A stretch of DNA of 64,000 nucleotides from a virus. The stretch is taken from positions 1-64,000 of IMG/VR virus record IMGVR_UViG_3300038722_000002. The stretch is one strand, 5' to 3'. Under the pieces are notes generated by a model. That model was not told the DNA's origin. It worked only from the letters and a program-made list of their open reading frames with translations, and did no database searches. Below, one piece after another: positions 10,865 to 54,438 of the stretch (its first letter is position 1; each line of letters starts with the position of its first letter). Position numbers and translations under genes: made by a program.

Positions 10865-12143
10865 TATTATCTACCTGTAGGTTTGGAATTACTGTTTGGT
10901 TTTCACTTCCTAGTATGATCGGCTGGGCCAATTCAACGTAGGTAGGGTGCATTATTTGTAAAGTAGTATTAGTGTCTGTAACGTATTCATAAGAGTATAT
11001 GTAGGTATCTGATACAGCATCCTCTATACCTGTTAGCTCAACACGAGAGGCTAATGGGTCTGGGTCTGTGACATACAACCTAAGCTCTGCCCCTATTGGG
11101 ACGTTTACGATAGTCAGTGTGGACTGTTGTGTTACTGTCTCAACAGTACCAGCACTAGCAAACGAACTTGTACTATTATAATTATTCCATCTAGTTTGAA
11201 TAACATCTACAGGAGTAAGTACTGGAGTATTTCTTGTGAAACGTAGGCTACTTATTGAACAGTTTGTGTTGGGGTACTGTACAGGCTTTGCGGGAGTATC
11301 TGCACCAGACAACCACTTCAATCGCTCTATGTCTGAAGAAAAAGCTCCGCTACTATGCAATACACCATCTAGGTAATAGTACACCGTACCGCTTTCCCTA
11401 TAGAAAGCAACATGGTGCCAAATACTCCAATCCAGCCACTGAGCGCCACCAATACTGGTGTCTCGTAAAACAAGAGCACCATAGTTGATACCTATGCCAA
11501 CAGAACCTACCCCAGAGAAGTAGTCCACTGGCGAGAAGACATTCTGAGTACCTGCGGTTGGTGCTGTCCCGTTGAAATTAACAAGAAACTCAAAATAGAA
11601 GTCACCAGATATATTCATCTCTTCTTCTAAGATTGCGTAGTTGTCTTGAAGTATGTTCCAAGCCTTCTGCCCAGCCACCTTACCATTGACATGTACTGGC
11701 GTACCTTTCTCTGATAGGGCGTTGTATGTTCCAGCTGAGTCTTTTGCAGTCTTAAAACCATCACCTACTGTAGCTTCTTGGAAGTGTATAGCTGCGTAAT
11801 ACTCAGACCAAACTGTACTTAACGGAAGCTGTGCCGAAGGATTGCCCCAGAACAAATAGACTATAGTATCAACAGACCCAGACAATGCTGTCTTTACATG
11901 CACTACGATCTCATCAGCCGATTTATCAATCATTTGAATATCAAAATCCAAAAGATTATTGCCGTTGACATCTGTAGCGAATCTAATGTCAGAACCATCT
12001 AAATTACAACCACCTACGTCAGCTAAAAGTTCTGCTGGGACATTAGAGGCGTTCAGCAATACTTGTGCAGCGGCTATATCGCCTGTTACTAGAGAATTAG
12101 TAATAGTAATAGGGCACTTCTTTGACCATCCATTAAGTGCCAT
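10857..12143 (-). CDS. DUF2341 plus LamG/ConA-like domain structural protein
   Basis: DGSDIRFATD and VYLFWGNP (DUF2341); WHHVAFYRESGTVYYYLDG (LamG). Confidence 0.75.
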   Translation of the reverse strand: MALNGWSKKCPITITNSLVTGDIAAAQVLLNASNVPAELLADVGGCNLDGSDIRFATDVNGNNLLDFDIQMIDKSADEIVVHVKTALSGSVDTIVYLFWGNPSAQLPLSTVWSEYYAAIHFQEATVGDGFKTAKDSAGTYNALSEKGTPVHVNGKVAGQKAWNILQDNYAILEEEMNISGDFYFEFLVNFNGTAPTAGTQNVFSPVDYFSGVGSVGIGINYGALVLRDTSIGGAQWLDWSIWHHVAFYRESGTVYYYLDGVLHSSGAFSSDIERLKWLSGADTPAKPVQYPNTNCSISSLRFTRNTPVLTPVDVIQTRWNNYNSTSSFASAGTVETVTQQSTLTIVNVPIGAELRLYVTDPDPLASRVELTGIEDAVSDTYIYSYEYVTDTNTTLQIMHPTYVELAQPIILGSENQTVIPNLQVDNND

Positions 12144-12417: not shown

Positions 12418-14214
12418 TTATACAGCCAACTTTCGACCCTCAGCAGTGATCGACCCGATAGCAGGGGCAAAAGTGTTGCCTGTTACTTCATCGAGATCCC
12501 ATGCGTGCGTCGTGCCCGTTGGGTATGTAACACCGTCATCATCTGTAGCCACTACAGTACCGTTAGCAATCCATAGTCGCTCAATCTGACCCTGCCAACC
12601 AGTGTTGTCATAGCTGTAGCTAGTTAGGTGGACGTCTCGATTCACTGGGTTAGAGAATTGCAGATCTAGGGTATTGGCGAACGTAGAGTCCCAATAGCTT
12701 GAGATGCTGTACTCGTAGTATTTAACACCATCAACATAAAAGCTCAGTGTAGTTCCCGACACCGTTACACGAACAACAGCGCCAGCAGGGAAGCCATTAG
12801 CTGGCAATGTGGTAACTTCTGTGCTGTCATACGTTCGACTTGCGCCATTACCAACAATCATCTCTGAGTAGGTAGCATCATGGCCTATAGCAACCGCCAT
12901 CCAGTTGCGGCCTTCACGGCTGAACATCCCGCGGCCCATGCCGTCTTTTGGCCAAGCGTCAACGAGAGTGAAGCCAAAACTATGATGACCAGCTTTGGTC
13001 AATACGTTGTCTAGTGAAGCATCATTGCCAAAATGAATGTACTGGAAGCCAGTCCCCCAATGAACGTCTGTTCGGTCGCTTGGGTAATAGGTTGCTCCTA
13101 CCGTGTAGTTAAATTCACTTGATTCAGTAGGCTGTTCTATAGAATTTTCGTAAGCTGTTGAACCTATAAATAATGTAGATAAAGAATCTACGAAACCTAA
13201 ATTACTATTGTTAGTGGGGCTATTCACAAAATCATAGCCAGTCTTCGTTATTAATTGCCATTGTGAACTAAATTCTGAATAGACTAAAGCTGTATCTGAT
13301 GCTCCATCCTTAACAAACATATAGTGACCTCCACCTGATTTCCATACTGCATTTCCTGAGAAGGTGTCTTCTGTTACTAAGGTATAAGAAGGCAATGTTT
13401 TTCTAGTGTACGTACCATCAAAACCAAAGTAACCTGAAATCTCTAACACTGAATAGTCAGTAGCTCCGCCCTCAGCTATGTCTTGACTTGTAGGTGCAAC
13501 TAAGTCGTATGTTAGTGATGTTGTAATATCAGTTGACAGCCCATCAACCAAAGTAGAAGGATCGGTTGATGAACCAATAAACACTGCCCAGTAGTTGTAG
13601 CCTGTAGGGGATATCAGATAGTTCCAAGTACCGTCGCCGTTATCTTTTACATAGATGGGCCATGCAGCATCCTCAATCAACGTACCGTTACTTGCGCCCG
13701 CTGTTCTGCCGTGAAAAGCAGTCTTAATGTAATACTCGGTATTATCAGTATTTGACGTGCTAATACGCATGAACGGATACGGGTTCAAGGCATTGGTGAA
13801 CTCAAGAACCCCTTGTGATGCTCGAATCTCCCAATCAATCTGATATGCAGCCGATGTTCCAGCAGGGTTTGAAGCTGTCACAAAGAAAGTGCCAGAACCA
13901 GTTGCCGCAGTAGTCGTATAAGTAATCACACCGCTAGAAGTGTCAAAACTAAACTCGGCAGGCAGAGTTCCGCTAGACACCGACCATAGAGTGAAAGGTT
14001 GAGACCCAGACAAAATAATTGGGGCAATTGTGCCTGAGCTGTCAACATTAACCTCTACTGATGGATATGCAAAGGTGGGCGCAGTAAAAACGTCACCTTC
14101 AAGCATCCAATCAACAACGTCAAAGGCATCATTTACCTTTTCCCAAGCAACCCTGTTCACATCGCCAGTGCCGTCATTTGGGGCAGCGCCTACATTGATT
14201 TTTTCAAGTGTCAT
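12418..14214 (-). CDS. Tail fibre or appendage protein with Ig-like and LamG-like domains
   Basis: N-terminal INVGAAPNDGTGD motif (T4 gp9/gp10-like); SGTLP..F.FDTSSGVI Ig segment; C-terminal LSFYVDG...WQGQI LamG-like. Confidence 0.75.
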   Translation of the reverse strand: MTLEKINVGAAPNDGTGDVNRVAWEKVNDAFDVVDWMLEGDVFTAPTFAYPSVEVNVDSSGTIAPIILSGSQPFTLWSVSSGTLPAEFSFDTSSGVITYTTTAATGSGTFFVTASNPAGTSAAYQIDWEIRASQGVLEFTNALNPYPFMRISTSNTDNTEYYIKTAFHGRTAGASNGTLIEDAAWPIYVKDNGDGTWNYLISPTGYNYWAVFIGSSTDPSTLVDGLSTDITTSLTYDLVAPTSQDIAEGGATDYSVLEISGYFGFDGTYTRKTLPSYTLVTEDTFSGNAVWKSGGGHYMFVKDGASDTALVYSEFSSQWQLITKTGYDFVNSPTNNSNLGFVDSLSTLFIGSTAYENSIEQPTESSEFNYTVGATYYPSDRTDVHWGTGFQYIHFGNDASLDNVLTKAGHHSFGFTLVDAWPKDGMGRGMFSREGRNWMAVAIGHDATYSEMIVGNGASRTYDSTEVTTLPANGFPAGAVVRVTVSGTTLSFYVDGVKYYEYSISSYWDSTFANTLDLQFSNPVNRDVHLTSYSYDNTGWQGQIERLWIANGTVVATDDDGVTYPTGTTHAWDLDEVTGNTFAPAIGSITAEGRKLAV

Positions 14215-40271: not shown

Positions 40272-40583
40272 ATGAAAAATATGAAGAATTTACCTCCTAT
40301 TCCACATGAATCTGAGGTCAAACAGGCGTTTTATGGACACATCCAAGAGACTCTATCCAGTGGGTCGTTGAATATTCCTGATGTTGGACTGCAAGAAATC
40401 ACATCATTTAGCGGAGGACACATCGGTTATAACAGCCCTATTAGCATCCTAAAGAGTGAAAATACAGACCTTCTCCTCTATTCTGTCGGGGGTATCGGCA
40501 CACTAGATGTCTATAATAACTACTCTGAAAGGCAAGAAATGAATGTATTTGTCCGTAAAGCTAAGAAAGTGCTTGACAAATAG
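40272..40583 (+). CDS. Hypothetical protein
   Basis: 103-aa ORF between the twin promoters. Confidence 0.6.
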   Translation: MKNMKNLPPIPHESEVKQAFYGHIQETLSSGSLNIPDVGLQEITSFSGGHIGYNSPISILKSENTDLLLYSVGGIGTLDVYNNYSERQEMNVFVRKAKKVLDK

Positions 40584-40603
40584 ATTAAATTAGTAGCAGA
40601 ATA
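40572..40603 (+). promoter_or_regulatory. Promoter upstream of the structured RNA / HNH locus (twin of 40204-40235)
   Basis: CTTGACAAAT-N8-TTAGTAGCAGAATA. Confidence 0.65.
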
Positions 40604-40609
40604 GGAATT

Positions 40610-41160
40610 AGAGTAATACAGAAGGTGTGGTTGTAAGACTACACCTGTACAAAATACATCACAATATACATTCCACCTGAGTGTGTATTCTAATGTATTT
40701 ATACATAGAGGCGTTTCGGCAAGGTTTCCCTCGCGTGGTAGCAAAAGCAAAACCCGACATATTGGTATATATGGAGCTGTAATGGATGACAGCGTTGAAG
40801 TGTAGTATCAAGAGTATACAATAACAAATCCTAGCTCTGACGTCCTCTGTCAACTGGGTAGGTGGAAATGGAACAAGGCCCGATCACTAAACATACCGAA
40901 TACCCTAAGATAGTCGTAGGTATGTTTACTCACTAGGGTTAAGTAGTGGGAGAATGCGTGTACCAAGGGGCAGGTCACGATAACGCAGAACCGATGACGT
41001 TATAGAGTAAACTCTTTATTTGGAATAAGTAATAATGAAAGTGACCAGTTAGGTCATATTACTTATATTGTACTTTACTAGGTACAATGGTTATATCTTT
41101 CAAGCAGTTATATATTATTAGAATATAATTGTTAGGATAGACCACCGAATAGAGAGGGCC
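40610..41160 (+). ncRNA. Candidate large structured ncRNA (~550 nt) upstream of an HNH gene
   Basis: About ten consecutive hairpins whose non-WC pairs are G-U on the + strand; no credible ORF; promoter directly upstream. Confidence 0.6.
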
Positions 41161-41193
41161 TAGTTGCATCTGAAACTTGAGAATGGAGAGAAT

Positions 41194-41997
41194 ATGGGTG
41201 ATTTACTACTGAAATTTAATGTACTAAAAGAGATAGAAGGGAGTGATGAAAACTCCTTCCAGCAGTTCGCTAATGATATGGCTTTGAAATACGGTATATT
41301 AGGAACTACTAATACAGTGATAGATTCGCTGTGGACTAAGAAGCGGCTGAACGTGAAAGACTACTTGCCTCCTAAGAAGAAGAAACGTAAGAAGCAGGAG
41401 AGACGTGGCTACCACTACAGTCCTAACGCAGACCTAGAGTGGTTATCCTTGAGACGTGATGTGATTAAGGTATTAGGAACTCGGTGTCTTTGCTGTAGAA
41501 AGAAACCAAAGAAGACTAAAGACCTACACGTTGACCACGTTCTACCAAGGAGTAGACATCCACACCTAACGTATGACATAATGAACCTTCAAGTGTTGTG
41601 TAAGACGTGTAACTACGATAAGTCAGATATACACGCAACGGATTACAGGACAGACGAACAACGAGAGAGGTTATTGATTATGAAGGGTGTTAGAGGTAAT
41701 TGTGTTGTGAGTGAGGATATGGTAGATGATGTGTATGATGTACTAGGGGATATCCCCACTGAATACCTACAGGAGCTACACAGCTTACTTGAGAAGACGA
41801 AGAACAGTAAAGTAATGCTAGAGGTAGAGAATGATAAACTATGCTCTGTAGTGTACCTGATAAGCTCTAAGGGCAGACATGTCGCCCACTGTAGTAAGAA
41901 TAAGATAGTTGTCCGTGAGTATCGCAACTGGAGCAACGACAACCGAGAGTTTAAGAATATAACCAAGGAGTTGTTGATTAAATGCAGGAAAGATTAG
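41194..41997 (+). CDS. HNH endonuclease (McrA/HNH_5-like) with Lys-rich N-terminal segment and C-terminal extension
   Basis: W..LR..V...CLCC...LHVDHVLPRS...NLQVLCKTCN..KS; likely ATG at 41194 after GGAG (ORF track start 41164). Confidence 0.85.
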   Translation: MGDLLLKFNVLKEIEGSDENSFQQFANDMALKYGILGTTNTVIDSLWTKKRLNVKDYLPPKKKKRKKQERRGYHYSPNADLEWLSLRRDVIKVLGTRCLCCRKKPKKTKDLHVDHVLPRSRHPHLTYDIMNLQVLCKTCNYDKSDIHATDYRTDEQRERLLIMKGVRGNCVVSEDMVDDVYDVLGDIPTEYLQELHSLLEKTKNSKVMLEVENDKLCSVVYLISSKGRHVAHCSKNKIVVREYRNWSNDNREFKNITKELLIKCRKD

Positions 41998-42200
41998 AAG
42001 AGTTTATAAATAAGTTAAAAGAAAGGTTGACGGCAGAATGGGGAGACACTATAATCGTCACCAAGATACAGGCAAGAGGATATGGCCCTACAATGAATGT
42101 GATACAAATTAAGAATAAAGGACTTGCAGAAACATACGGAGTGTGGGAGACTAGAACAACTGGAGGGGGTAGCTTAGTGCAGTGGTGCTACTTCACATAA
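41982..42200 (+). CDS. Hypothetical protein
   Basis: 72-aa ORF with AAGGAG RBS. Confidence 0.65.
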   Translation: MQERLEEFINKLKERLTAEWGDTIIVTKIQARGYGPTMNVIQIKNKGLAETYGVWETRTTGGGSLVQWCYFT

Positions 42201-42207
42201 GATTAAC

Positions 42208-42246
42208 GGGTAGCTAGGAATTTGGAGGTTAAAATCCTCCCTGCCC
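42208..42246 (+). ncRNA. tRNA remnant or minihelix (acceptor stem plus T arm only)
   Basis: GGGTAG...CTGCCC stem enclosing GGAGG-TTAAAAT-CCTCC. Confidence 0.4.
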
Positions 42247-42450
42247 TAACCTACGAGCTGTGTGACTACAGCTAGTACAGCCCTGTACGATGAGAAGTAA
42301 GTTGTGGTGACTTGCATGGGAGGCCGCGTAAGGTGGGCTGAAAACACCTCAGTCTTGTACAATGACTTAAAACTTAGGGGTGGAGCTTCGGTGTAGAAAT
42401 CTTTGAGAGGTGTATCCAGTTGCTAGTCTGGTTAAAATTAGCACGAATTA

Positions 42451-42571
42451 CGGGGTGTAGCTTAAAAGGTAGAGCAGTTGGGCCAGCCGCCGCTAACTAG
42501 TATCGCGCAAAGGCGTTGACTAGTATCGGAAAGGGCGCTAATCAGTACGGTCTCGATAACCGTCACCCCGT
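42451..42571 (+). ncRNA. tRNA-like RNA with a long hairpin replacing the anticodon loop
   Basis: Acceptor CGGGGTG/CACCCCG, U8A9, D arm GCTT-AAAAGGTA-GAGC, anticodon stem GTTGG/CTAAT, T arm ACGGT-CTCGATA-ACCGT. Confidence 0.65.
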
Positions 42572-42590
42572 CTTAGTTAAGGAGAGATGT

Positions 42591-42866
42591 GTGTATTTTA
42601 AAAAGAAACCAGACAGGCGTGTAGGGGATCTGTATTGGGAACAGTTATCTATGTGGGATAGATCACCTACTGATGCAGTTGACATGTACAGCGAAGATGG
42701 GTTTCACTTCGAGCTTAGGTTAATTACAGAGGTGAGGAGTGCTACGGGTTGGAGTAATAGGTTTGTGATGTGGGATGAGTTAACATCTGAGCAGATAGAG
42801 GGGCTTGTACCTCAAGAAGGACACAACTGGTCACGGATAATGGGGAACGTAGAGGACTTTAGTTAA
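42591..42866 (+). CDS. Hypothetical protein
   Basis: GTG start after AAGGAG; the longer track ORF (42516) overlaps the tRNA-like element. Confidence 0.65.
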   Translation: MYFKKKPDRRVGDLYWEQLSMWDRSPTDAVDMYSEDGFHFELRLITEVRSATGWSNRFVMWDELTSEQIEGLVPQEGHNWSRIMGNVEDFS

Positions 42867-43091
42867 ATGACAAAACTGATAAAACCACACGAGGCGTGGA
42901 AAGAGGTTGTCCACACCGCTAGGGATAATATCGATAACCTTAACGACTTCAAGGAAGATACAGCAATCGTATGGGCTGACAAGGAGTTGCAGAACTATAA
43001 GAGGGCTATGATGGCCTTGGCTACAAGGAGTAACTCACAGGATGATCTATCCTTGATAGACACAATGGTAAGACGGGCGGAGGCACAATGA
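42867..43091 (+). CDS. Hypothetical protein
   Basis: 74-aa ORF within the operon. Confidence 0.65.
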   Translation: MTKLIKPHEAWKEVVHTARDNIDNLNDFKEDTAIVWADKELQNYKRAMMALATRSNSQDDLSLIDTMVRRAEAQ

Positions 43092-43264
43092 GCGCACTAA
43101 GAACTAAAGAAGTAGTCCCCCTAGTAGAAGAAGCTCACAACCGAGGACTATCACTATCAAGGTCTAATGACCTAGATACACATTCCTACTTACTAATTGG
43201 ACTCTTTGAAATAATCTCTGAGATGAGGGATGAGATCGATTTACTACAGGAGAAATCAAAATGA
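43088..43264 (+). CDS. Small hypothetical protein (58 aa)
   Basis: GGAGG RBS; ATGA overlaps at both ends. Confidence 0.6.
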   Translation: MSALRTKEVVPLVEEAHNRGLSLSRSNDLDTHSYLLIGLFEIISEMRDEIDLLQEKSK

Positions 43265-43455
43265 CATATTTCACAATGAGCACATTCAGATCGAAGGAAG
43301 ACCTGTACAAAGCCAAGGCAGAGTACCTAGAGAGCGCCCTCAAGCAGATCGTTGATGCACACCAGCTTGATGACTCCGTGTGGAAGGAGGATGATTTGTG
43401 GTGTACTGATCAATCGGAAGGGGAGTATCCCTTAGTGTGGGGTGAGTTGAAATGA
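43261..43455 (+). CDS. Hypothetical protein
   Basis: 64-aa ORF with AGGAG RBS. Confidence 0.65.
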   Translation: MTYFTMSTFRSKEDLYKAKAEYLESALKQIVDAHQLDDSVWKEDDLWCTDQSEGEYPLVWGELK

Positions 43456-43598
43456 GTAGTGACAATACACATAAGGTGCTTGCAAGAGAGACACCAACTA
43501 TGTATAATGACCCCTTGGGTTGTTTAACTAAATGACGGCAAAGTAAAAAGTTTCCGAGGCTTCCCTCTTTGCCAGAAGACTACACATAAGGAGAACAA

Positions 43599-43754
43599 AT
43601 GATATCAGAAGTAACAATCTCAACTGAGAAACTAGAATATTTATATCAACGAGATCAATTACTATCAGCACTAGAAGCAGCAGGTGTAGATAATTGGGAA
43701 GGATATGACTGTGTAATAGAATCACTACTACAACAATGGAGAGAAGAAGTTTGA
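43599..43754 (+). CDS. Small acidic protein resembling the T3-type gp5.9 family (annotated RecBCD inhibitors)
   Basis: MISEVTISTEKLEYLYQRDQLLSALEAAGVDNWEGYDCVIESLLQQWREEV*; AAGGAG RBS. Confidence 0.6.
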   Translation: MISEVTISTEKLEYLYQRDQLLSALEAAGVDNWEGYDCVIESLLQQWREEV

Positions 43755-43771
43755 TTGAAGAACAACAAGAT

Positions 43772-44026
43772 ATGTTTAAGAAAGAAGTAACAGTGTTCAC
43801 AAGTGGTTGGTGTACTAACTGTAAGCCCGTCAAGCACTATCTAAGCCTCTTAGAACAAGAAGGGGTGGTAAGTGTAGAGTATGCCGATGTAGACGCTCTA
43901 ACGGCCTCTCAGCAGTCTCTAAAAGAACAACACAATATACTGAGTATTCCAGTAGTCGTCTATGGAGATAAGACACTGATTGGAAGTAAGACTAAGCAAG
44001 AGATTATGACTTTTCTGGAGGTTTAA
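43772..44026 (+). CDS. Glutaredoxin/thioredoxin (NrdH-like)
   Basis: WCTNC redox motif and SIPVV; immediately upstream of nrdA. Confidence 0.85.
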   Translation: MFKKEVTVFTSGWCTNCKPVKHYLSLLEQEGVVSVEYADVDALTASQQSLKEQHNILSIPVVVYGDKTLIGSKTKQEIMTFLEV

Positions 44027-53757: not shown

Positions 53758-54438
53758 ATGTTTAATTGGGGTAAAACACAGAAGAATGTATCGGAGCCTG
53801 TGGCTGAAATCATACGTCTACTAGAGGAGGAGATATCTACACTTCATGATGTGGGGCCGTCTATCCTACGAAGATGGAACGTCTCTTATGTTGACGAGAG
53901 AAAGAGAGAGTTCTCCGTGGCAGATATTACCAAAGGGTTGTACTATACAAACCACACATCATGGTTAACCTCTCAGGAGGTTGAACAACTATTCTGTGTC
54001 TGTCATAAGTACCATGTGCTAGAACAACTACAACAAGACATCATCAAACGACATGATGAACTCGTAGTACAAGAGACTCTTGAGATACCTGAGATCGAAG
54101 CAGTATTAATCCGTGACATGGAACAGGCTGTGGAGTCACAAAAGGAGAGTGATCTTTATGATTATAGGGAATATCACATTTACCTTCCCTATATAATGAA
54201 AAAGGGCTTTGCTTTTAAGCTGCACCCCGACATCACAACCCACTCACGACACGGTATACCACTGACTCCGTACACCATAGTACATCTCAGCCTAGAGGCT
54301 AGTGGCCGTCTCCTAGAATTGACAAAACGTATGTCACAAAAGGAAGAACGAGCGTATGTTGTAAGACGACAGAAGAGAGCACAAGATGAAAGGCAGTGTA
54401 TTATGGAACGATATTTTGAGGAGATAGAGAATGACTAA
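53758..54438 (+). CDS. Hypothetical protein
   Basis: 226-aa ORF with GGAG RBS. Confidence 0.7.
   Translation: MFNWGKTQKNVSEPVAEIIRLLEEEISTLHDVGPSILRRWNVSYVDERKREFSVADITKGLYYTNHTSWLTSQEVEQLFCVCHKYHVLEQLQQDIIKRHDELVVQETLEIPEIEAVLIRDMEQAVESQKESDLYDYREYHIYLPYIMKKGFAFKLHPDITTHSRHGIPLTPYTIVHLSLEASGRLLELTKRMSQKEERAYVVRRQKRAQDERQCIMERYFEEIEND

What the first reader, a model, noticed from the sequence alone, without database searches (positions are those of the whole stretch)
42451..42571. tRNA-shaped RNA whose anticodon loop is replaced by a ~56-nt hairpin
Seen: a complete tRNA scaffold (7-bp acceptor CGGGGTG/CACCCCG, U8A9, D arm with GG, 5-bp anticodon stem GTTGG/CTAAT, T arm). Between the anticodon-stem strands lies GCCAGCCGCCGCTAACTAGTATCGCGCAAAGGCGTTGACTAGTATCGGAAAGGGCG, which itself pairs (GCC/GGC, CCG/CGG, ACTAGT/ACTAGT, CGC/GCG). 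The T loop is non-canonical (CTCGATA) and no CCA is encoded. The insert is too short for a group I intron. Inference: a non-decoding tRNA mimic, such as a decoy for anticodon nucleases or a carrier for a processed small RNA.
Basis: partly seen in the sequence, partly recalled or inferred. Interest (0 to 1): 0.75.

Follow-up and report, generated by a model that had tools for sequence, protein, structure and literature searches.

The report
Broken tRNA relic in phage leader
This is a real tRNA-shaped sequence in a marine phage, but it looks like a leftover tRNA gene whose codon-reading arm was wrecked by a small tandem duplication, sitting among two more decayed tRNA remnants, not a purpose-built mimic.

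Summary
Window 42451-42571 (+) has a clean tRNA body: 21 of 21 stem pairs stand, with U8, A14, G18-G19 and A21. A 56-nt stretch sits where the anticodon loop should be. A generic tRNA-body descriptor hits only this site in the 83.5-kb phage contig and none of 100 shuffles.

It is not a working tRNA:
- ARAGORN, with or without introns, and Rfam tRNA do not call it.
- The T loop has C54 and U53-A61.
- No CCA is encoded.

The insert is not a designed hairpin:
- It holds two tandem ~23-nt copies that resemble the tRNA's own 3' anticodon-stem/variable/T-stem segment.
- Its fold is no more stable than shuffles.

Context points to decay:
- Two more degenerate tRNA-like sequences lie just upstream, behind one strong promoter.
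- A related phage has Met, Arg and Trp tRNAs at the matching place. Another has 18 tRNAs in the stretch fetched beside its terminase.
- In a sister sample a contig stops matching exactly at the element's 5' edge.

Best reading (0.55): a non-decoding tRNA relic, probably still transcribed and possibly still processed.

A retained non-decoding role (0.3) is not excluded. The body is better kept than neutral drift predicts, and a relative carries a 117-nt tRNA-like RNA above Rfam's cut-off.

No RNA data and no orthologue were available.

The parts
42451..42571 (+). tRNA-shaped element ('el2'): acceptor 42451-57/42564-70, D arm 42460-75, anticodon stem 42477-81/42538-42, T arm 42547-63, unpaired T at 42571, no CCA
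42482..42537 (+). 56-nt stretch in place of the anticodon loop; folds as an imperfect hairpin that is no more stable than shuffles
42491..42550 (+). three in-phase direct copies of a 15-mer (42491-42505, 42514-42528, 42536-42550; spacing 23 and 22). The third copy is the tRNA's own 3' anticodon-stem strand, variable region and start of the T stem
   Evidence: family D1; (13/15 and 11/15 identities; chance about 1e-6 and 1e-4 per offset)
42377..42450 (+). middle tRNA-like remnant: 5' end 11/12 like el2, T-loop-like GGTTAAAAT shared with the first remnant, no acceptor 3' strand, no stable fold
   Evidence: D4, D7; z -0.02
42163..42248 (+). first tRNA-like remnant: perfect 5-bp anticodon stem around an 18-nt loop, perfect 5-bp T stem, imperfect acceptor (4 Watson-Crick, 1 G-U and 2 non-standard of 7 pairs by Rfam's alignment; ARAGORN draws another register); below Rfam's cut-off
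   Evidence: 22.2 bits against 29; ARAGORN only at lowered threshold, with an 11-nt 'intron'
42027..42055 (+). best sigma-70-like promoter of the region (TTGACG-17-TATAAT, 11 of 12), upstream of all three tRNA-like sequences
42591..42866 (+). 91-aa ORF starting 20 nt after the element (GTG start behind AAGGAG); weak homologue in a Vibrio phage. In one sister-sample run (X2) one contig stops matching at 42449 and another starts matching at 42880, so element plus ORF may be swapped as a unit
41164..41997 (+). HNH endonuclease gene just upstream of the tRNA-like array

Best explanation
A tRNA gene relic. The phage's ancestors carried a small promoter-driven tRNA operon at this place. In this phage the operon is decaying, leaving three tRNA-derived sequences. 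The third keeps an intact tRNA body. Its anticodon arm was destroyed by local tandem duplication of a ~23-nt segment that resembles its own 3' anticodon-stem/variable/T-stem stretch, plus a GCC-rich 11 nt in front. The result cannot read codons. Inferred, not shown: it is still transcribed from the promoter at 42027-42055 as part of the leader of the early operon. Because the acceptor, D and T arms still pair, host RNase P and 3' processing enzymes may still cut it out, which would trim the leader off the downstream mRNA. On this reading the hairpin is a by-product: each repeat copy contains the palindrome ACTAGT, so two copies pair automatically.
For: (1) Not a working tRNA. ARAGORN finds 0 genes in the window and 0 in the whole contig with introns up to 200 or 3000 nt allowed; it is called only at lowered thresholds that give 169 calls in 83.5 kb. 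Rfam has no match at gathering score or at E<=10. The sequence shows C54, U53-A61, no U33/R37 loop and no CCA. (2) The insert is a duplication. A 15-mer occurs three times at spacing 23 and 22, and the third copy is part of the tRNA proper. Expected exact 10-mer repeats in 56 nt: 0.0013. P(>=11/15) is 1.4e-4 per offset. (3) The hairpin is not more stable than shuffles. (4) The neighbours show graded decay: 42163-42248 scores 22.2 bits, below the 29-bit cut-off; 42377-42450 shares 11/12 of the 5' end with the element but has no acceptor partner and no fold. (5) Relatives. L009 (TerL 57% identical) has Met, Arg and Trp tRNAs behind strong promoters, upstream of TerL on the opposite strand, as here. 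L181 (portal 57% identical) has 18 tRNAs next to TerL, and its tRNA-Gln shares the element's first 14 nt and CACCCC. The records behind L005, L006 and L018 have no tRNA match at E<=1, so the array is dispensable in this lineage; those records are 75%, 24% and 23% complete. (6) Normal-size phage tRNAs with the same 13-nt 5' end and 8-nt 3' end exist in 8 viral loci (Pro in 5, Phe in 2, Gln in 1). Long versions: 0 in viral contigs. The 2 genome hits are normal tRNA-Pro genes with a chance downstream match. (7) All 6 normal tRNAs whose 3' ends I read encode CCA; the element does not. (8) In a sister sample (run X2) a 233-nt contig matches 42265-42449 and then runs on unlike, exactly at the element's 5' edge. 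Another contig starts to match only at 42880. This suggests the element is replaced there.
Against: The body is cleaner than a long-dead gene should be: 21 of 21 pairs stand. If the body had drifted as much as the two repeat copies differ (4 substitutions plus 1 gap in 23, about 0.1 per lineage), about 3.4 broken pairs are expected, and P(0 broken) is about 0.03. The numbers are small and this assumes the copies drift neutrally. The strong promoter is kept. The cloverleaf is the MFE and centroid fold, even inside the 539-nt leader. A relative, L007, carries a 117-nt tRNA-like RNA with a canonical T loop and an intact acceptor, scoring 42.7 bits despite about 63 nt between its D and T arms. L007 also has a second tRNA with an enlarged anticodon loop. 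Enlarged anticodon regions therefore recur in this lineage. None of the 86 Rfam tRNA hits in eight other phage loci, most of them tRNA clusters, exceeds 94 nt. No orthologous normal tRNA was identified for this copy.
Confidence: 0.55

Rival explanations
1. A retained, non-decoding tRNA-shaped RNA. Selection keeps the acceptor/D/T body, while the anticodon arm is free to expand. The RNA might work as a processing signal: RNase P and 3' trimming would cut the early-operon leader just before the 91-aa ORF. Or it might act as a decoy or sponge for enzymes that recognise the tRNA body, such as tRNA-targeting defence nucleases.
For: 21 of 21 pairs are intact, against about 3.4 expected broken at the divergence of the repeat copies. 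The strong promoter is kept. The element ends 20 nt before the ORF start, and element plus ORF may vary as a unit between strains. L007's 117-nt tRNA-like RNA passes Rfam's cut-off (42.7 against 29 bits) with its anticodon and variable region replaced. Long tRNA-like bodies are rare elsewhere: 0 of 86 Rfam hits exceed 94 nt, and 2 real cases among 59 descriptor hits in 2.12 Mb, both in one huge phage. The phage encodes an RlaP-family 'RNA repair pathway' nucleotidyltransferase. By listing and abstract only, PMC10264068 and PMC11555353 report that phage tRNAs counter tRNA-targeting defences.
Against: There is no homologue of the element, so no covariation test is possible. The inserts of the element and of L007's RNA share neither sequence nor architecture. 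The T loop lacks T54 and G53-C61, which by my recalled knowledge tRNA-shape readers normally rely on. The two neighbours are plainly decayed. The element appears replaced in a sister sample. The homologue of the 91-aa ORF in Vibrio phage vB_CoeS_P1 has no tRNA-like sequence in front.
Confidence: 0.3
2. A working tRNA with a short intervening sequence that is spliced out.
For: A huge-phage contig, L186, has four tRNAs that ARAGORN calls at default threshold with 20-48-nt inserts in the anticodon loop. Two of them share one conserved insert, so short inserts in otherwise good phage tRNAs do exist.
Against: ARAGORN with introns allowed finds nothing here at default threshold. At a lowered threshold it proposes Thr(agt) with two non-pairs in the anticodon stem. 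Reading the loop around the insert gives C33 and C37, not U33 and a purine. No group I intron match, and 56 nt is far too short for one. The phage's relatives are phages of Pseudoalteromonas, Aeromonas and Vibrio; bulge-helix-bulge splicing is not known in bacteria (recalled).
Confidence: 0.04
3. A DNA-level site (two ACTAGTATCG boxes 23 bp apart as a protein-binding site or origin iterons) that only by chance lies in a tRNA-like frame.
For: There is an exact 10-mer direct repeat with an internal palindrome. It lies in a promoter-rich region between divergently oriented gene blocks.
Against: There are only two boxes in the window, none elsewhere at <=1 mismatch. The paired motif occurs in 45 viral loci, which I estimate to be about chance level for an 18-base pattern; I did not examine them. 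The tRNA body is far beyond chance and matches real tRNAs.
Confidence: 0.03

Closest known systems
tRNA pseudogenes and degenerate tRNA copies in phage tRNA clusters
   Same: It is derived from a tRNA: the 5' 13-14 nt and the 3' acceptor strand are identical to real phage tRNAs. It lies in an array with other degenerate copies, has lost its decoding elements and fails the tRNA finders.
   Different: The body is unusually intact (21 of 21 pairs). The damage is confined to the anticodon arm and comes from tandem duplication, not scattered substitutions.
Non-decoding stable RNAs of phage tRNA regions (T4 RNA C and RNA D; T5 'tRNA-like stable RNAs')
   Same: A phage RNA encoded with tRNA genes, tRNA-related and without a decoding role. 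[quoted passage not shown] Their tRNA-like shape and the T5 RNAs are my recollection and an earlier scan note (e1-5633470), not tested here.
   Different: No sequence or model comparison with them was possible. Those RNAs are shown to be expressed; this one has no expression data and no conserved relatives.
The 117-nt tRNA-like RNA of a related uncultured phage (L007:2701-2817, minus strand)
   Same: Same lineage (TerL 59% identical). Same place and orientation relative to TerL. A tRNA body with about 63 nt between the D and T arms. Missed by default ARAGORN.
   Different: It passes Rfam tRNA (42.7 bits), has a canonical TTCGAGT T loop and folds with a 4-bp mini-hairpin plus a branched extra arm. 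Neither its insert sequence nor its fold resembles this one.
Short-insert tRNAs of a 533-kb phage contig (L186)
   Same: Good tRNA bodies of 124 nt with a 39-48-nt insert in the anticodon region.
   Different: They are called by ARAGORN at default threshold with a proper anticodon, and two different tRNAs share one conserved insert. This element meets neither condition.

Membership tests
Canonical tRNA (Rfam RF00005 / ARAGORN) | Score at or above the family cut-off (29 bits), or a default ARAGORN call | tested here: not met
   No match at gathering score or at E<=10; ARAGORN finds 0 genes
Canonical tRNA (Rfam RF00005 / ARAGORN) | Cloverleaf body: 7-bp acceptor, U8, D arm with G18-G19, 5-bp T stem | tested here: met
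Canonical tRNA (Rfam RF00005 / ARAGORN) | 7-nt anticodon loop with U33 and a purine at 37 | tested here: not met
   56 nt lie between the stem strands; the bases next to the stem give no such loop
Canonical tRNA (Rfam RF00005 / ARAGORN) | T loop T54-Psi55-C56-R57-A58 closed by G53-C61 (rule recalled) | tested here: not met
   CTCGATA closed by T-A; positions 55-58 fit, 53, 54 and 61 do not
Canonical tRNA (Rfam RF00005 / ARAGORN) | 3' CCA and aminoacylation | not testable with these tools
   CCA is not encoded; addition and charging need experiments
Intron-bearing tRNA (group I or bulge-helix-bulge) | Group I catalytic core, or an intron whose removal leaves a tRNA that the finders accept | tested here: not met
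   No RF00028 match here, although relatives' introns were found by the same tool. ARAGORN -i at default threshold finds 0
tmRNA | tRNA-like domain with G3-U70, a tag reading frame and pseudoknots | tested here: not met
   ARAGORN and Rfam find no tmRNA. Pair 3-70 is G-C. The element is only 121 nt
YrlA-type Y RNA | tRNA-like module closed at the acceptor end, with the RNA's termini in a Ro-binding stem (recalled) | tested here: not met
   No Rfam match to any family. Here the acceptor end is open and the anticodon arm is closed
tRNA relic / pseudogene | Clear tRNA ancestry plus loss of decoding elements | tested here: met
   ancestry; loss
tRNA relic / pseudogene | Relatives have intact tRNAs at the matching place, and the copy is dispensable | tested here: inconclusive
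   L009 and L181 have intact arrays, three relatives have none, and a sister-sample contig diverges at the element's edge. No one-to-one orthologue was found, and the body is better kept than drift predicts
Phage non-decoding tRNA-like stable RNAs (T4 RNA C/D type) | A stable processed transcript, conserved among relatives | not testable with these tools
   No RNA run holds the stretch; no homologue was found

The most novel reading that the evidence does not exclude
This marine phage lineage keeps non-decoding tRNA-shaped RNAs (this 121-nt element and the 117-nt RNA of L007) in the promoter-proximal leader of its early operon. Selection acts on the acceptor/D/T body only, so the anticodon arm expands freely. 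The RNAs would serve as RNase P/3'-end punctuation for the downstream mRNA, or as decoys that soak up body-recognising tRNA nucleases of host defence.
Probability: 0.22. Interest if true: 0.65.

Novelty: new member of a known kind. Interest (0 to 1): 0.3.

Why it matters
If it is a relic, it mainly shows how phage tRNA arrays die: an anticodon arm knocked out by slippage while the body still folds, beside older wrecks. It also warns that tRNA-shaped sequences in phages are not automatically mimics. If the minority reading is right, it would add a marine example to the unexplained non-decoding tRNA-like RNAs of phages. It would also give a simple test case for body-only selection: delete it, map the RNA ends, and challenge with tRNA-targeting defences in a laboratory host.

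Tried and rejected
Searches for relatives of the element that found nothing useful:
- Exact 30-nt search in viral contigs: 0 hits.
- The 91-aa ORF in viral contigs: none. In GenBank phages: one weak hit without a tRNA-like neighbour.
- blastn of 41000-44000 against phages: no match.
- blastn-short and nhmmer of 42100-42650 against 16 related loci: only chance words.
- Long-form pattern: 0 in viral contigs. The 2 hits in genome contigs are normal Rhodoferax tRNA-Pro genes with a chance downstream match.
- A conserved downstream motif of L007/L009 in viral contigs: 8 loci, of which 6 are chance hits in coding DNA.
- The paired 9-mer motif: 45 loci, which I estimate to be about chance level; not examined further.

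Expression: no RNA holder was listed for 40500-44000. Three of the four runs laid (X5-X7) covered only parts outside the element, and X2 did not cover 42515-42817.

TRF found no tandem array at score 30; the repeat came from the repeat finder.

Repeats in the relatives' odd tRNAs: only one 7-nt pair in L007's RNA and none reported in L009's Trp. My idea that all three were expanded by slippage is therefore not supported beyond this element.

An 18-nt look-alike of the element's 5' end at 54212-54229 (minus strand) has no tRNA features around it.

Ancestral identity: the acceptor fits tRNA-Pro types best, in 5 of the 8 viral loci with the same ends. The anticodon could not be reconstructed; a Pro(UGG) reading of TTGGG needs an extra deletion, so I dropped it.

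Papers. PMC10264068 and PMC11555353: search listing and abstract start only. PMC9697503 and PMC10690425: passages found with 'find'. I found no paper on a phage tRNA-like decoy or on tandem duplication in an anticodon arm in the searches; this is not proof that none is in print. Supplementary files were not opened.

Full report
WHAT THE WINDOW IS. The window is the first 64 kb of an 83,539-bp uncultured virus record that CheckV rates 54% complete. It is a tailed phage. It encodes a T4-type large terminase, Mu-type portal, major capsid protein E, ribonucleotide reductase, ATP-dependent ligase, NAPRTase, PhoH, helicases and a family B polymerase. The closest cultured relative by TerL is Pseudoalteromonas phage H101 at 51% identity, followed by Aeromonas and Vibrio phages. 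The runs that hold the DNA are marine metagenomes. Structural genes run on the minus strand up to about 40 kb, and early genes run on the plus strand from about 41 kb.

THE OBSERVATION. The MFE and centroid fold of 42451-42571 is the cloverleaf with a long anticodon arm. It is still the predicted fold when the whole 539-nt leader is folded. All 21 stem pairs of the four arms stand: 18 Watson-Crick and 3 G-U. A descriptor made only of generic tRNA-body features hits this site alone in the contig and nothing in 100 dinucleotide shuffles. I wrote the descriptor after seeing the element, so it is a lenient test, but the result is clear. The body also matches real tRNAs. Eight viral loci hold normal-size tRNAs with the same 13-nt 5' end and 8-nt 3' end: tRNA-Pro in 5, tRNA-Phe in 2 and tRNA-Gln in 1. 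So it is a tRNA-derived sequence, not a chance look-alike.

WHY IT IS NOT A WORKING tRNA. ARAGORN finds no tRNA in the window. It finds none in the whole contig when introns of up to 200 or 3000 nt are allowed. The element appears only at lowered thresholds, the lowest of which gives 169 calls in 83.5 kb, which is noise level. Rfam gives no match at gathering score. At E<=10 it reports only the neighbour at 42176-42248. The T loop reads CTCGATA closed by T-A, whereas the near-universal form is T54 with G53-C61 (rule recalled). There is no U33/purine-37 loop in any register, and no CCA follows. All six normal tRNAs of related or matching phages whose 3' ends I read do encode CCA.

WHAT THE INSERT IS. 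The repeat finder shows a 15-mer three times, in phase, at 42491, 42514 and 42536. The first two copies are 13/15 identical and stay alignable over 22-23 nt, with 4 substitutions and 1 gap. The third copy is 11/15 identical to the first. It is the tRNA's own 3' anticodon-stem strand, variable region and first T-stem bases. Chance expectations are about 1e-3 for the exact 10-mer repeat and 1.4e-4 per offset for the third copy. The simplest history is two rounds of local tandem duplication of that segment. Each copy contains the palindrome ACTAGT, so two copies pair with each other. That pairing is the core of the 'hairpin'. The hairpin is no more stable than shuffled sequence (z -1.18 and -1.60). 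The motif occurs nowhere else in the window.

THE SURROUNDINGS. The element is the last of three tRNA-like sequences in the 390-nt gap between the ORFs ending at 42200 and starting at 42591.
- The first (42163-42248) has perfect anticodon and T stems. It also has an 18-nt loop, a poor acceptor and a TTAAAAT T loop. It scores 22.2 bits against Rfam's 29-bit cut-off.
- The middle one (42377-42450) shares 11/12 bases with the element's 5' end and the GGTTAAAAT box with the first. It has no acceptor partner and no fold.
- The best sigma-70-like promoter of the region (11 of 12) lies at 42027-42055, upstream of all three.
- An HNH endonuclease gene lies directly before them.

RELATIVES. From IMG/VR I obtained six loci at 53-63% TerL identity.
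- L009 has Met, Arg and Trp tRNAs behind two strong promoters, upstream of TerL on the opposite strand, as here. Its Trp tRNA is 82 nt and carries a small repeat in the variable region.
- L007 has two odd tRNAs at the same place that default ARAGORN misses. One is a 78-nt tRNA with an enlarged anticodon loop (37.9 bits). The other is a 117-nt tRNA-like RNA (42.7 bits) with an intact acceptor, a canonical T loop and about 63 nt between its D and T arms.
- The records behind L005, L006 and L018 have no tRNA match at E<=1, but they are only 75%, 24% and 23% complete.
- A more distant relative, L181 (portal 57% identical), has 18 tRNAs beside TerL. One is a tRNA-Gln with the element's first 14 bases.
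The lineage therefore shows every stage from a full array to none, and this phage sits near the end of that series.

POPULATION DATA. In a sister sample from the same study as the likely source (run X2), one contig matches 41000-42211 with 2 differences. Another matches 42265-42449 with 5 differences, 4 of them in the middle remnant, and then continues with unlike sequence exactly at 42449/42450. Matching resumes at 42880, just after the 91-aa ORF. This suggests that element plus ORF form a replaceable unit between strains. The replacing sequence was not recovered.

WEIGHING. Most of the evidence fits a relic: failure of every tRNA test, a duplication-made insert, graded decay of the neighbours, loss of CCA, a dispensable array and possible replacement in a strain. 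Three things argue against pure decay.
- The body has no broken pair. If it had drifted like the repeat copies, about 3.4 broken pairs are expected, giving P of about 0.03. This rests on few sites.
- The promoter is intact.
- L007's 117-nt RNA shows a second case in the lineage of a well-kept body with a replaced anticodon region.
Such lengths are rare elsewhere. None of the 86 Rfam tRNA hits in eight other phage loci exceeds 94 nt. The descriptor found only two real long cases in 2.12 Mb of other phage loci, both in one huge phage. However, the inserts of this element and of L007's RNA share nothing, so the insert as such shows no sign of a conserved role. I put 0.55 on a relic that may still be processed, 0.3 on a retained body-only function, and little on splicing or a DNA site.

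COMPARISON WITH KNOWN THINGS. It works like, and is best filed with, degenerate tRNA copies of phage tRNA arrays. It resembles the unexplained non-decoding RNAs of the T4 and T5 tRNA regions only in a general way. A passage of PMC9697503 says T4 RNAC and RNAD have unknown functions; their shape is my recollection. It fails the tests for tRNA, intron-bearing tRNA, tmRNA and YrlA (see Membership tests). Papers on phage tRNAs that escape anticodon nucleases (PMC10264068 and PMC11555353, listing and abstract only) concern decoding tRNAs, not decoys.

VERDICT. This is a new member of a known kind (a tRNA relic) with an unusual mode of breakage. Interest 0.3. The scan had noted the same stretch once more and its neighbour (e1-6115893, e1-6115894). 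On other DNA it had noted non-decoding tRNA-shaped phage RNAs (e1-5633470).

Noticed in passing
L186:4949-5072 and L186:13517-13640 (IMGVR_UViG_3300049215_000771, 532,729 bp); also L186:3609-3708 and 11921-12015: A huge-phage tRNA array holds four tRNAs that ARAGORN calls at default threshold only when introns are allowed (inserts of 39, 48, 20 and 21 nt in the anticodon loop). Two of them have different acceptor stems but share one conserved insert of about 48 nt with a UNCG-capped hairpin. Rfam at gathering score reported neither of these two 124-nt genes. It could be a mobile or spliced mini-insert.
   Followed up: partly
L007:2701-2817 (-) and L007:3153-3230 (-): A related phage has a 117-nt tRNA-like RNA (Rfam 42.7 bits) with its anticodon and variable region replaced by about 63 nt. 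It also has a 78-nt tRNA (37.9 bits) whose anticodon loop is 3 nt too long. Default ARAGORN misses both.
   Followed up: partly
L009:3820-3990 (-), L007:2330-2500 (-); window 42252-42300: L007 and L009 share a conserved non-coding stretch downstream of their last tRNA. Its hairpin changes on both sides between the two phages (CTGTA/TACAG against CTACA/TGTAG). The window has a look-alike between its first and middle tRNA remnants. No Rfam family matches.
   Followed up: partly
window 42449/42450 and 42880: In a sister-sample run, one contig diverges exactly at the 5' edge of the element and another starts to match just after the 91-aa ORF. Element plus ORF may be a strain-variable cassette. Divergence rises from 2 differences in 1212 nt to 5 in 185 nt towards the break.
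   Followed up: partly
contig 69529-70503 (-), = L179:5529-6503: A 324-aa protein matches Pfam RlaP, 'RNA repair pathway DNA polymerase beta family' (2.6e-15). No RNA ligase family was found among the neighbours scanned.
   Followed up: partly
L005:12335-12624 and 12883-13208; L010:2751-3081; L018:10988-11253: Group I introns lie in or just after the terminase region of related phages (93, 69 and 89 bits above cut-off; L018's 29 bits is below it). The window has none.
   Followed up: no
window 54212-54229 (-): An 18-nt near-copy (17/18) of the element's 5' end lies antisense inside ORF 53758-54438, with no tRNA features around it. It is probably chance.
   Followed up: yes
window 41982-42200: The best promoter of the region lies inside a 72-aa ORF with no Pfam match, and that ORF's last 38 nt overlap the first tRNA remnant. 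Whether this ORF is a real gene is open.
   Followed up: no
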